Position numbers and translations under genes: made by a program | In this document: piece after piece, positions 100 to 3,521 of the stretch | Layout of the letters: the number at the start of each line of letters is the position of its first letter | How positions within the stretch are numbered: position 1 is the first letter of the stretch | The notes under the pieces: generated by a model | What the model saw: only the letters and a program-made list of their open reading frames with translations | What the model was told of the DNA's origin: nothing | Databases searched by the model: none | Virus record (IMG/VR): IMGVR_UViG_3300020030_000034 | Span: 1-6,141 of that record | Length of the DNA: 6,141 nt | Reading direction: 5' to 3' (one strand) | Origin: a virus

Positions 100-685
100 A
101 TTTATCCGAAATTTCTTCGGGATTAAATTGAATTTGTTTAGTAACATACTTTACGCAGTAGCGGGCACGCTTGTGAGTTGCTTTCGCCAACCACACGAAA
201 CCAAGGTCACGGACAGCTGATCGGATCTCATTGTACATACAATCAGTTCCAAAGAGAAAACCATGGAAATGAAGGCGTGGAGCTGATCCTGTTTCTGGAT
301 GGGTGCCAAACTCCTGGAAAAACGCATGTTTAAAGGAGTGGCCGATCTTATGGCGAATACGCTCATTCCATCGTCGGATAAACTTAGAAGGCTCTAGCAA
401 TGCTTCATCGTAATACTTCGGTGATATTGTTATCGTAATAAAAATAGCCTGCCGAGACTCGGACTTACAGCAAGCAAGCTCACGCTCAAGACGAACAAAC
501 CAATCATTACGCAGACGACGCAAGCAGTCTTCACACTTTCCACAAGGAACCAACAGCCACTGGCGGGCGACGTCCCAGGGATAAAGAGCTAAAGCCGACT
601 TGGCGACATCAGAACCATCACGACAAGGGTTTTTCTTGTCGAAATAACGACGATTCCGTATCCATATGGGAGATGAGCAGGCCAT
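1..685 (-). CDS. VP4: Replication initiation protein (Microviridae VP4/Rep, HUH rolling-circle endonuclease), N-terminal part (aa 1-229). The ORF runs off the left edge and continues at 6042 by circular closure.
   Basis: Manual translation of the minus strand from the ATG at 683-685 gives MACSSPIWIRNRRYFDKKNPCRDG...LLVPCGKCEDCLRRLRNDW...AIFITITISPKYY...APRLHFHGFLFG...RARYCVKYVTKQ...FVSAGVGDFLG. It shows the microvirus Rep signatures: an M-x-C-x-x-P N-terminus, a PCGxCxxC cysteine cluster, motif I (FITIT), the HUH motif (HFHGFLF, His codons at 269-271 and 263-265) and motif III (YxxKY, Tyr codons at 158-160 and 146-148). There is no stop codon before the window edge, which explains why the ORF track omits it. 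Confidence 0.9.
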   Translation of the reverse strand, partial: MACSSPIWIRNRRYFDKKNPCRDGSDVAKSALALYPWDVARQWLLVPCGKCEDCLRRLRNDWFVRLERELACCKSESRQAIFITITISPKYYDEALLEPSKFIRRWNERIRHKIGHSFKHAFFQEFGTHPETGSAPRLHFHGFLFGTDCMYNEIRSAVRDLGFVWLAKATHKRARYCVKYVTKQIQFNPEEISDKYVTVDGNLTPLSCLLQHRRYTRKFVSAGVGDFL

Positions 686-885
686 TAAAAGATACTTTGA
701 AGACAATCGAACTTAATATAAGGGTTAGTACGGCGACAGCGAACAAGATAATCAATCGCAGGAATCTTGTCAGCAAACCAAGCGATAACGACGCGCTTTT
801 TGCCACGGTATGCGCCAATAGAGTAGCGATAAGAAATACTATTAACAATGGGGGAGAATCTAGGTCTGAAATCAAAATAATCCAT
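685..885 (-). CDS. Small basic hypothetical protein (66 aa) directly upstream of Rep, with stop and start overlapping
   Basis: It has an ATG start at 883-885 with an AT-rich leader. It contains 12 Arg/Lys against 5 Asp and no Glu. Its T-ending codon bias matches the other minus-strand genes. Its TAA stop (685-687) shares base 685 with the Rep ATG (TAATG). Confidence 0.55.
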   Translation of the reverse strand: MDYFDFRPRFSPIVNSISYRYSIGAYRGKKRVVIAWFADKIPAIDYLVRCRRTNPYIKFDCLQSIF

Positions 886-926
886 AATCTAAAAATATTA
901 CTTAACGACAATTACTACGTTTCGCC

Positions 927-968
927 GGCCGACAGCCTTAACGGCTGGGACGCTACGCGTCTTCGGCC
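927..968. other. Compact three-way-junction DNA/RNA fold in the non-coding region
   Basis: The outer stem is ggccga (927-932) paired with tcggcc (963-968). It encloses two hairpins: cagcc (933-937)/ggctg (943-947) with loop ttaac, and gacgc (949-953)/gcgtc (957-961) with loop tac. Single-nucleotide linkers sit at 948 and 962. A further hairpin, accgg (996-1000)/ccggt (1005-1009) with loop taaa, lies just beyond it. Confidence 0.5.
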
Positions 969-1010
969 TCCGTGGCTCCACTTCGTTTGAGATATACCGG
1001 TAAACCGGTG

Positions 1011-1050
1011 AACAAAAAAGAACCCGCAGGAGGGGGGGAATCTCCTGGGG
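1011..1050 (-). terminator. Rho-independent-type terminator (GC stem-loop followed by a T-tract) downstream of the 107-aa ORF
   Basis: The minus strand reads CCCCAGGAG-attcccccc-CTCCTGCGGG followed by TTCTTTTTTGTT. This gives a 9-bp stem with one bulged C and a 9-nt loop, followed directly by the T-run (plus-strand coordinates 1011-1022). It lies 47 nt after the ORF stop at 1097. Confidence 0.5.
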
Positions 1051-1096
1051 CTCAGCGAGTTAAAGGACTCTTCCACCAAGCGGGCGGGTCACTACT

Positions 1097-1420
1097 CTAG
1101 TGCCCTTCCCCTTCTTCTTTCGACGAGCTTTCATTGTGAGTCAAATCAGTGCTAAAAATAAGAATAAGTGTATTATCAAAGAAATCAATCGAAAAGTCGG
1201 GATACGCAATCAGGGCCTCTATAAGGCTAGGAATTTGACAATGATTGATATAAGGCGAAGCGGAGATACTAGAATGTTCTACAAACTCAGGAACGGGAGT
1301 ATGTTCAAGAACATCAAGAGGCAATGTCGAAAATTGTTCATCTTTAATACAGCCTACCTGAACAAAATCGACCTTAAGAGCCGGATTAATACGGCGGAAA
1401 ACGATATGAACCTGTGTCAT
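1097..1420 (-). CDS. Hypothetical protein, 107 aa, acidic, no recognisable motif
   Basis: It is an ATG-initiated ORF on the same strand as all the other genes. Its T-ending codon bias (GTT, CTT, GAT, CCT, ATT) matches VP1. It has an AT-rich leader and lies 23 nt after the preceding ORF. I judge the antisense ORF at 1100..1435 to be a shadow of this one. Confidence 0.55.
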   Translation of the reverse strand: MTQVHIVFRRINPALKVDFVQVGCIKDEQFSTLPLDVLEHTPVPEFVEHSSISASPYINHCQIPSLIEALIAYPDFSIDFFDNTLILIFSTDLTHNESSSKEEGEGH

Positions 1421-3196: not shown

Positions 3197-3388
3197 TTAC
3201 GGAAGCGTAAAGTTGTTCGAGCGAATAATGTAGTCTACACGAACAGTATCAATATGAACACCTGCTCGAGCAATCTTAGCTTGCGCAGAACACGAAGCGA
3301 GAAAAAAGGCAGCCAACGCAGCAACGATAGACGAGACAAGCGTCCAAAACGCCTTCGACTTATAAAACGGTTGTTTGATATCAGACAT
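3197..3388 (-). CDS. Small predicted lipoprotein or membrane protein, 63 aa (alternative upstream ATG at 3499 would give 100 aa)
   Basis: The sequence is MSDIKQPFYKSKAFWTLVSSIVAALAAFFLASCSAQAKIARAGVHIDTVRVDYIIRSNNFTLP. It has a positively charged n-region (K5, K10, K12), a hydrophobic core of about 18 aa, and the lipobox L-A-S-C with Cys33. Cleavage there would leave a 31-aa mature peptide. The stop at 3197-3199 lies 1 nt before the VP2 ATG. Confidence 0.6.
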   Translation of the reverse strand: MSDIKQPFYKSKAFWTLVSSIVAALAAFFLASCSAQAKIARAGVHIDTVRVDYIIRSNNFTLP

Positions 3389-3521
3389 AGTAGTAGAATT
3401 TAAAGAACGATAGAAAAATACGCGGCCTCTCCCGCAGTCGTTACCAATAACCTCTAGCAATTCACGAACTCTTGCAAGAGGGGTCCGCGCACGTAGCATA
3501 TATCGTCAAGTAAAGGATATA

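What the first reader, a model, noticed from the sequence alone, without database searches (positions are those of the whole stretch)
886..1096. GC-rich, hairpin-dense non-coding segment: candidate ssDNA origin or single-strand initiation signal
This is the only sizeable stretch without a credible ORF, and it is visibly more GC-rich than the coding sequence. It contains four structures. The first is a 42-nt three-way junction (927-968) made of a 6-bp closing stem and two 5-bp hairpins with 1-nt linkers. The second is a 5-bp hairpin (996-1009). The third is the terminator hairpin (1023-1050). The fourth is a weak 4-bp hairpin, gagt/actc (1057-1070). In ssDNA phages, clustered hairpins in an intergenic region serve as complementary-strand origins (the G4 primase-dependent origin, the phiX174 PriA assembly site, filamentous-phage minus-strand origins). 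The region also lies immediately upstream of the 66-aa-ORF/Rep/VP1 gene block, so it may hold the main promoter as well. The nick site for Rep cannot be identified by eye.
Basis: partly seen in the sequence, partly recalled or inferred. Interest (0 to 1): 0.6.

Follow-up and report, generated by a model that had tools for sequence, protein, structure and literature searches.

The report
Swappable folded-DNA cassette in gut microvirus
The "non-coding" gap of this small single-stranded DNA gut phage holds the end of a missed 24-codon gene, a transcription terminator and a conserved Y-shaped block of DNA hairpins that unrelated phages of the same host exchange; the block always lies on the strand that looks packaged, so it most likely helps the host start copying the incoming strand.

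Summary
The window is a circular microvirus of about 6,042 nt with all genes on the minus strand. CRISPR spacers point to a Rikenellaceae (Bacteroidales) host.

- The three-way junction (968..927), the hairpin (1009..996) and the terminator hairpin (1053..1020 plus T-run) are real. They fold better than shuffles and show compensatory changes in more than 40 distinct relatives.
- 1060-1096 is not non-coding. It is the end of a conserved 24-aa basic ORF (1134..1060).
- The fourth "hairpin" straddles that ORF's stop and has no support.

The junction belongs to a cassette of about 65-130 nt. It is 82-96% identical in three microvirus lineages that otherwise share almost no DNA similarity and whose Reps are at most 38% identical. 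It is absent from close relatives with the same Rep, and another cassette can replace it.

In one lineage the cassette is inverted relative to the genes. That lineage's synonymous-site T-richness is inverted too, so the cassette and its C-GNA-G DNA mini-hairpins follow the T-rich strand, not transcription.

Best reading (about 0.5): an accessory, host-directed complementary-strand initiation signal. The function is untested.

The scan had already met this cassette on other genomes.

The parts
1060..1134 (-). Missed 24-aa, highly basic ORF (MKARRKKKGKGTRVVTRPLGGRVL). It overlaps the 3' end of the 107-aa ORF in the +1 frame and is a candidate J/VP8-type DNA-binding protein.
   Evidence: stop-to-stop ORF; intact in 58 loci, third-position variation 11/12 against 2/12 and 3/12. 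No Pfam or PHROG match, so the function is an inference from size and charge.
1013..1053 (-). Intrinsic-terminator-like hairpin (stem 1053..1020, 9-nt loop, one bulged base) followed by a T-run (1019..1013). It closes the 101-aa/107-aa/24-aa gene unit.
   Evidence: dG -8.2, z -2.9. Present with varied, still-pairing stems and a T-run in all relatives. The simple scan missed it, plausibly because its 9-nt loop exceeds the scan's 8-nt loop limit.
996..1009 (-). Palindromic hairpin HP0 (ACCGG-TTTA-CCGGT), which leads directly into the TATAT box.
   Evidence: in the centroid fold. Compensatory variants. It is degenerate in relatives that lack the cassette.
991..998 (-). Conserved GGTATAT(C) box; GGTATATAC or GGTAAATAC in other lineages. 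Function unknown.
   Evidence: Nearly invariant columns in A2. Kept in most cassette-less relatives but absent in L022.
919..981 (-). Cassette A core.
- Outer GT/AC pairs: 981-980 with 920-919.
- GCC/GGC: 976-974 with 926-924.
- Three-way junction 968..927, made of closing stem GGCCGA/TCGGCC, hairpin GACGC-GTA-GCGTC (a GCGNAGC mini-hairpin) and hairpin CAGCC-GTTAA-GGCTG.
   Evidence: 100% paired, 5 covarying pairs, all four bases at N of GNA; more than 60 contigs; the only stretch shared with L034 (96% over 81 nt).
886..918 (-). 3' edge of the cassette (a weak 4-bp hairpin) and the AT-rich box AGTAATATTTTTAGATT directly before the ATG of the 66-aa ORF. It is the likely translation-initiation region and a possible Bacteroidetes-type -7 promoter region.
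   Evidence: the AT-rich box is conserved in genomes with and without the cassette. No sigma-70 match. The promoter assignment is an inference.
685..885 (-). 66-aa ORF just upstream of Rep (context, the downstream border of the gap).
   Evidence: Conserved at 64-85% amino-acid identity in relatives.

Best explanation
On the gene-sense (minus) strand, the gap 1096..886 holds four things in a row:
- the last 12 codons of a 24-aa basic protein gene;
- an intrinsic terminator;
- a portable module made of a hairpin, a TATAT box and a 63-nt folded core with a three-way junction and GNA-triloop mini-hairpins;
- an AT-rich start region for the 66-aa-ORF/Rep block.

The portable module most likely works as DNA, on the packaged single strand. 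Its stable hairpins would stay free of SSB and mark a site where host enzymes (primase, RNA polymerase or a primosome) lay down the primer that turns the incoming circle into double-stranded replicative form. This would be an accessory, host-specific complementary-strand origin, like G4 oric or the sso cassettes of rolling-circle plasmids.

Shown here: the folds, their covariation, the modular exchange between lineages, the independence from Rep type, and the link to the T-rich strand.

Inferred: that the T-rich strand is the packaged one, and that the function is priming.
For: - Structure: z-scores of -3 to -4. Covariation with 100% pairing and 0 of 500 shuffles reaching it.
- Wobble pairs: G-T wobbles lie mostly on the gene-sense strand, 20 cells against 4 A-C cells.
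- DNA-type loops: GCGNAGC with N = A, C, G and T. Relatives carry CCGAAGG and GCGAAGC hairpins inside the terminator. The review PMC13037366 gives Tm 70-76 C for GCGNAGC and places such mini-hairpins in G4/St-1/alpha3 oric, RSF1010 ssiA and N4 promoters.
- Host-linked, not Rep-linked: the cassette is 82-96% identical in three lineages whose Reps are 28-38% identical. It is absent from relatives whose Rep is 82-89% identical to the window's. Both phage types are hit by spacers of the same Rikenellaceae-type CRISPR arrays.
- Strand tracking: in the L034 clade the module is inverted relative to the genes. The 4-fold-site skew is inverted as well: coding-strand A 0.41-0.45 and T 0.07-0.10, against T 0.51-0.54 and A 0.06-0.11 in the window type. 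C-to-T bias of the single-stranded genome is documented for ssDNA phages (PMC4032129).
- Mini-hairpin strand count: 10 distinct C-GNA-G triloop hairpins lie on the T-rich strand of these gaps, against 1 on the other strand.
- Precedent: conserved covarying hairpins upstream of Rep in other microviruses were proposed, unproven, for the same role (PMC9865509).
Against:
- The module is dispensable. Short-gap relatives lack the cassette, and L022 lacks the whole module. Complementary-strand synthesis can therefore start elsewhere.
- A second gap (3389-3521) is 88-98% conserved in every family genome and is a better candidate for an essential origin.
- Nearest-neighbour energies are nearly equal for the two strands.
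- There is no sequence similarity to any characterised origin, and no Rfam family matches.
- Near-identity between lineages could reflect recent recombination rather than selection. Part of the measured conservation comes from the exact-pattern searches used to find the copies.
Confidence: 0.5

Rival explanations
1. The cassette folds on the packaged strand but serves another ssDNA-level purpose. It could be part of a portable replication module holding the Rep nick or termination site (for example at the hairpin-flanked GGTATAT box). It could also be a nucleation or tethering site for genome condensation in the capsid, or give protection from host ssDNA nucleases.
For: - The same strand-tracking and covariation evidence applies.
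- The GGTATAT(A)C box next to a hairpin is common to all three lineages and survives in most cassette-less relatives.
- HUH nick motifs are often shared by very different Reps (general knowledge).
- The whole module, not just the junction, is inverted in the clade with reversed skew.
Against: - L022 lacks the box and the module altogether.
- Cassette presence does not follow Rep type.
- phiX174-type origins lie inside gene A and need no hairpin (general knowledge).
- No packaging signal is known for microviruses.
Confidence: 0.2
2. The cassette acts as RNA. It would be a structured 5' leader of the 66-aa-ORF/Rep mRNA, a 3' stabiliser of the upstream transcript, or a small RNA.
For: - It lies between a terminator and a start codon.
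- As RNA it also folds better than shuffles, z about -2.2.
- The conserved stems would form in RNA too.
Against: - In the L034 clade it is antisense to all genes, yet its sequence and loops are kept.
- GNA triloops closed by C-G are a DNA-stability motif.
- No Rfam match at E up to 10.
- No promoter match upstream. The conserved AT-rich box lies downstream of it, next to the ATG.
Confidence: 0.1
3. It is a selfish or near-neutral palindromic element, or just a recombination hot spot. It would spread among co-infecting microviruses by recombination and have no function for the phage.
For: - Presence/absence polymorphism and alternative cassettes at one site.
- It is the only shared DNA between unrelated genomes.
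- Recombinant or chimeric junctions sit at the cassette in L040 and L086.
Against: - Compensatory changes keep every helix 100% paired across diverged copies.
- Loop and linker sequences are conserved.
- There is a single copy per genome, always in the same gap and always on the T-rich strand.
- No copies were found in 401 Rikenellaceae genomes or in the exact-pattern scan of 185,579 species genomes.
- Microvirus genomes are tightly packed, so 110-150 nt of useless DNA should be lost.
Confidence: 0.12

Closest known systems
Primase-dependent complementary-strand origins (oric) of G4, St-1, alpha3 and phiK (Microviridae, Bullavirinae)
   Same: Both are clusters of hairpins in an intergenic gap on the packaged strand of a microvirus. 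Both contain very stable GNA-type or GCGNNAGC-type DNA mini-hairpins (PMC13037366).
   Different: There is no sequence similarity. Here the core is a three-way junction. The element is optional, swappable and shared by unrelated lineages. The host is a Bacteroidales bacterium whose priming rules are unknown. Priming is untested.
Single-strand origins (ssoA, ssoU, ssoT, ssoW) of rolling-circle plasmids
   Same: Both are non-coding, highly folded, strand-specific and host-restricted. Both are not strictly essential and are carried as interchangeable cassettes by replicons with unrelated Reps. ssoA also holds a recombination site, RSB (PMC5703833).
   Different: This is a phage, not a plasmid. 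No conserved RSB or CS-6 motif is present: the window reads TAGCGT, but the T is the free N of the GNA loop. RNA-polymerase priming has not been shown.
phiX174 primosome assembly site (PriA/n' site) in the F-G gap
   Same: A hairpin on the viral strand that recruits host priming machinery.
   Different: That site is a single hairpin of about 55 nt recognised by PriA. No similarity was tested beyond BLAST. PriA dependence cannot be tested here.
Conserved hairpins upstream of Rep in reekeekee- and roodoodoo-microviruses (PMC9865509)
   Same: Covarying DNA hairpins in the gap before Rep, proposed but not proven to start negative-strand synthesis.
   Different: Those are simple hairpins conserved within one clade. 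Here there is a branched fold exchanged between clades and found in both gene-relative orientations.
phiX174 J-F region: gene J followed by terminator T_J
   Same: A tiny basic protein gene is followed at once by an intrinsic terminator.
   Different: The 24-aa ORF has no detectable homology to J. It overlaps the preceding gene.

Membership tests
G4-type complementary-strand origin (oric) | Lies in an intergenic region on the packaged strand | tested here: inconclusive
   It is intergenic. It lies on the T-rich strand in all lineages. T-richness is only a proxy for the packaged strand.
G4-type complementary-strand origin (oric) | Several stem-loops, including a mini-hairpin of the GCGNAGC/GCGNNAGC class | tested here: met
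   GACGC-GNA-GCGTC in the junction. The motif class is defined in PMC13037366.
G4-type complementary-strand origin (oric) | Sequence homology to G4/St-1/alpha3 oric | tested here: not met
   blastn (distant mode, E up to 1) of 860-1120 against 50,697 phage records finds only uncultured Microviridae sp. of this family.
G4-type complementary-strand origin (oric) | DnaG primase starts a primer at a defined site in the presence of SSB | not testable with these tools
   Needs biochemistry.
Rolling-circle plasmid sso | Functional in one orientation only (on the displaced strand) | tested here: inconclusive
   Orientation is fixed relative to the T-rich strand but not relative to the genes. Function was not assayed.
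Rolling-circle plasmid sso | Cassette shared by replicons with unrelated Reps in one host range; not essential | tested here: met
Rolling-circle plasmid sso | Conserved RSB and CS-6 (TAGCGT/A) motifs of ssoA | tested here: not met
   The T of TAGCGT is the variable N of the loop (C, T, A or G in A3). No RSB comparison was possible.
Intrinsic (rho-independent) terminator (for 1013-1053) | GC-rich stem-loop followed by a T-run, downstream of a stop codon, conserved with compensatory changes | tested here: met
   The simple scan missed it, plausibly because its 9-nt loop exceeds the scan's 8-nt limit. Termination itself was not assayed.
Any Rfam RNA family / tRNA | Covariance-model match | tested here: not met
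   No hit in 886-1140 at E up to 10. No tRNA or tmRNA.
Rep (plus-strand) origin of this phage | Co-inherited with its Rep and present in every viable genome | tested here: not met
   The cassette is absent from relatives with 82-89% identical Rep, and present with Reps that are 28-38% identical.
Microvirus J/VP8-type DNA-binding protein (for the 24-aa ORF) | Very small, highly basic, conserved ORF; homology to known J | tested here: inconclusive
   Size, charge and purifying selection are met. No Pfam or PHROG hit.

The most novel reading that the evidence does not exclude
The hairpin/TATAT-box/cassette block is a portable replication module whose orientation decides which strand is displaced and packaged. 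In the L034 clade the module is inverted, and with it the whole mutational skew. Those microviruses would then package the strand complementary to their mRNAs, which has not been described for Microviridae. The window's cassette would be the same module in the usual orientation.
Probability: 0.25. Interest if true: 0.85.

Novelty: new variant of a known kind. Interest (0 to 1): 0.62.

Why it matters
How the thousands of uncultured gut microviruses start second-strand synthesis is unknown. The only characterised origins are those of E. coli phages.

This cassette gives a defined 63-nt, covariation-supported fold. It has natural knock-outs, natural swaps and a natural inversion, so the question can be tested directly.

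It also shows non-coding, host-linked modules moving between unrelated ssDNA phages, as sso cassettes do among plasmids. Together with the reversed skew of the L034 clade, it suggests that genome polarity in Microviridae may not be fixed.

Two practical points follow. Annotators miss the 24-aa gene. The cassette's conservation also makes it a recurrent CRISPR target and a cause of chimeric assemblies.

Tried and rejected
- Rfam (E up to 10) and ARAGORN found nothing in the gap.
- The sigma-70 promoter scan found no site in the gap. The terminator scan missed the real hairpin, plausibly because its 9-nt loop exceeds the scan's 8-nt limit.
- Type VI (RNA-targeting) CRISPR was considered for the spacers that match the cassette. 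It was rejected because the locus has Cas9, Cas1 and an array, so it is type II-C. The spacers say nothing about transcription, and they hit both strands.
- Prophage / Xer-type attachment site: only one distant microvirus-like VP1 (31% identity) turned up in 401 Rikenellaceae genomes. There is no evidence of integration among those searched.
- Host-derived element: no exact-pattern match in 185,579 species genomes. The 401 Rikenellaceae genomes gave only short matches of 19-54 nt; the five I inspected looked like chance matches in ordinary sequence.
- Diverged copies in cassette-less relatives: the covariance model R1 finds none.
- Rep-specific origin: rejected, because presence does not follow Rep.
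- Strand choice from folding energy: not informative, as both strands fold about equally.
- A pairwise-identity script timed out. The rerun gave cassette-core mean identity 0.89, against 0.86 for Rep and 0.72 for the ORF107 region. This is biased by the pattern used to find the copies.

Full report
WHAT THE WINDOW IS

The first 99 bases recur at the end, so this is a circular genome of about 6,042 nt. All genes lie on the minus strand. They include Rep/VP4 (across the junction), VP1, VP2 and small ORFs. The nearest public records are uncultured Microviridae from animal faeces, at about 70-79% identity. In gene order, the gap under study (1096..886) follows the 107-aa ORF and precedes the 66-aa ORF and Rep.

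CHECK OF THE OBSERVATION

- The segment is GC-rich: 0.565 against about 0.44 for the genome.
- It folds better than dinucleotide shuffles: z = -3.25 for the gene-sense strand as DNA, and -2.2 for the other strand and for RNA.
- The 56-nt junction alone gives z = -3.6 and -4.0.
The hairpin at 1009..996 and the terminator hairpin (1053..1020, followed by a T-run) are in the centroid folds.
- Rfam and ARAGORN find nothing.

PART OF THE GAP IS CODING

In the first alignment with relatives, the 37 nt after the stop of the 107-aa ORF were highly conserved. Their substitutions fall on every third base of the +1 frame.

A stop-to-stop listing shows a 24-aa ORF at 1134..1060, MKARRKKKGKGTRVVTRPLGGRVL. 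It is intact in 58 loci. In its last 12 codons, variable sites are 2/12, 3/12 and 11/12 at codon positions 1, 2 and 3.

The product has no Pfam or PHROG match. A J/VP8-like DNA-binding role is an inference from its size and charge.

THE GAP IS MODULAR

Fourteen IMG/VR relatives found through the 107-aa ORF show two forms.
- Short gaps hold the terminator plus about 40 AT-rich bases.
- Long gaps carry an extra GC-rich block of about 108 nt. It lies between a GGTATAT box and the AT-rich box before the ATG.

Some long gaps add a second hairpin cassette with a TACCGT loop. One genome (L017) carries an unrelated GC-rich block at the same place. More distant relatives (MG945730 type) carry a different three-way fold inside the terminator loop, with two C-GAA-G hairpins.

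HOW WIDESPREAD THE CASSETTE IS

- An exact pattern from the junction finds 31 IMG/VR contigs, all about 5-6 kb.
- A looser pattern finds 35 metagenome stretches. Of these, 27 are true copies, 2 are CRISPR spacers and 6 are chance GC-rich hits.
- No copy is found in one genome from each of 185,579 prokaryote species.

COVARIATION

On 44 distinct core sequences, every one of 924 pair cells is a standard pair. Five pairs change on both sides:
- the closing stem reads GG/CC, CT/AG, CC/GG or TC/GA;
- the GTTAA hairpin has A-T, G-C or C-G;
- an outer GT/AC pair becomes AC/GT or AT/AT.

None of 500 shuffles reaches this, and slid controls pair at 15-47%. On the longer alignment, the upstream hairpin and the second cassette hairpin also covary.

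The middle base of the GNA loop takes all four values while its stem never varies. The stem was fixed by the search pattern, so only the closing stem, the second hairpin's 3' arm and the outer pairs are unbiased tests.

WHO SHARES THE CASSETTE

tblastn with the window's proteins sorts the carriers into three lineages.
- Window family: Rep 82-93% identical to the window's, but VP1 only 65-92% and ORF101 only 33-84%, so these genomes are mosaic.
- L057/L063 type: Rep 28-38% identical.
- L034 type: Rep 30% identical.

Between the window and L034, the cassette is the only alignable DNA (81 nt, 96%). With L063, the window shares the cassette (84%) and part of the small lipoprotein gene.

Close relatives without the cassette have Reps as similar to the window's (82-89%) as carriers do. 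The cassette is therefore not a Rep-specific origin. A covariance model built from the core finds no diverged copy in cassette-less genomes.

HOST

Two metagenome hits are CRISPR arrays whose spacers match the junction itself. The locus has Cas9, Cas1 and an array, so it is type II-C.

The same repeat occurs in Alistipes and Tidjanibacter genomes, both Rikenellaceae. One array of 55 repeats has about 30 spacers against this phage family, three of them in the cassette. The other array targets both the window type and the L034 type. These lineages therefore appear to share a host group.

I found no prophage copy and no host homologue of the cassette in 401 Rikenellaceae genomes.

THE ORIENTATION PUZZLE AND ITS RESOLUTION

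In the L034 type, the whole module lies between VP2 and Rep but is inverted relative to all genes. The module here means a mini-hairpin, the TATAT box, the cassette and the second hairpin. Its closest relatives carry the alternative L017-type cassette in the same inverted frame.

At first this argued against a strand-specific DNA function.
- On the coding strand of the window, L023, L056, L063 and MG945784: T is 0.51-0.54 and A is 0.06-0.11.
- On the coding strand of L034 and L060: A is 0.41-0.45 and T is 0.07-0.10. This is the mirror image.
- The same reversal holds for Rep genes across the L034 clade, down to 65% identity.

The two types share a host, so codon selection cannot explain a mirror image. 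ssDNA phages are known to accumulate C-to-T changes on the strand that exists single-stranded (PMC4032129). The simplest reading is that the T-rich strand is the packaged one. On that reading, the cassette's GNA strand is on the packaged strand in every lineage.

There is independent support. In the gaps of these genomes, 10 distinct C-GNA-G triloop hairpins lie on the T-rich strand and 1 on the other. These include five in L099/L100 that are unrelated to cassette A. By my own sign test this is about p = 0.01.

WHY DNA RATHER THAN RNA

- GCGNAGC hairpins melt at 70-76 C as DNA. They occur at the G4, St-1 and alpha3 complementary-strand origins, in RSF1010 ssiA (CCGAAGG) and in N4 hairpin promoters (PMC13037366).
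- The element's sense does not follow transcription.
- No promoter match lies upstream of it.
- The conserved AT-rich box lies between the cassette and the ATG.

MOST LIKELY MECHANISM

The cassette is an accessory single-strand initiation signal. Stable branched hairpins on the incoming strand would stay free of SSB and recruit host priming enzymes.

The parallels with plasmid sso cassettes are close. Both are non-coding, folded, strand-specific, host-restricted and dispensable, are shared by replicons with unrelated Reps, and coincide with recombination junctions (PMC5703833). Similar but simpler covarying hairpins upstream of Rep have been reported in other microviruses, with the same unproven proposal (PMC9865509).

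WHAT WEAKENS THIS READING

- Nothing shows priming.
- The module can be missing altogether (L022).
- A second gap (3389-3521) is 88-98% conserved in all family genomes and may hold the essential origin(s).
- Folding energies do not distinguish the strands.
- High identity between lineages may partly reflect recent recombination and my pattern-based sampling.
- Run-level data could not be consulted.

VERDICT

The element is a new variant of a known kind: a structured, ssi/sso-like element of an ssDNA replicon. The same cassette had already been noted by this scan on other genomes, with the same reading.

Noticed in passing
window 1060-1134 (minus strand): Unannotated 24-aa, very basic ORF overlapping the end of the 107-aa ORF. 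It is under clear purifying selection in 58 relatives and is a candidate J/VP8-type protein.
   Followed up: yes
L034, L060, L094-L100 (related loci): A microvirus clade whose coding strand is A-rich and T-poor at 4-fold sites (A 0.41-0.45, T 0.07-0.10 in L034 and L060). This mirrors the window type, which shares its host. It suggests these phages package the strand complementary to their mRNAs.
   Followed up: partly
L082 8641-12216; L069 (metagenome contigs): Type II-C CRISPR arrays (Cas9, Cas1, 36-nt repeat) with about 30 spacers against this microvirus family, three of them in the cassette. The same repeat occurs in Alistipes and Tidjanibacter genomes, so the host is probably Rikenellaceae.
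   Followed up: yes
window 3389-3521: A second non-coding stretch, 88-98% identical in all 40 family loci that cover it, far above neighbouring genes, and hit by two widely matching CRISPR spacers. It is a candidate for an essential cis element such as the Rep origin.
   Followed up: partly
L017 1610-1737; L095, L097, L101 upstream of Rep: An alternative GC-rich 'cassette B' occupies the same slot as cassette A, in both the window family and the L034 clade (inverted there). It shares the motif GCCGTTAAG with cassette A.
   Followed up: partly
window 991-998 (minus strand); the same box in L034, L063 and MG945730-type loci: A GGTATAT(A/C)C box next to a hairpin, conserved across lineages and kept in most cassette-less relatives. 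It is nearly palindromic in the L034 type. It is possibly a nick site or a promoter element, but it is absent in L022.
   Followed up: partly
window 3209-3350 versus L063 4991-5132: Part of the small lipoprotein gene is the only other DNA shared (72.5%) with the unrelated L063-type microvirus. This suggests a second host-linked module that moves between lineages.
   Followed up: no
L086, L040 (related loci): L086 joins window-type genes to L034-type flank exactly at the cassette, which is probably an assembly chimera at the shared repeat. L040 carries an extra 76-aa ORF after the cassette, with L063-type sequence.
   Followed up: no
window family loci L023-L053: Strong mosaicism. Rep is 82-89% identical throughout, while VP1 ranges 65-92%, VP2 62-93% and ORF101 33-84%, in independent combinations.
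   Followed up: no
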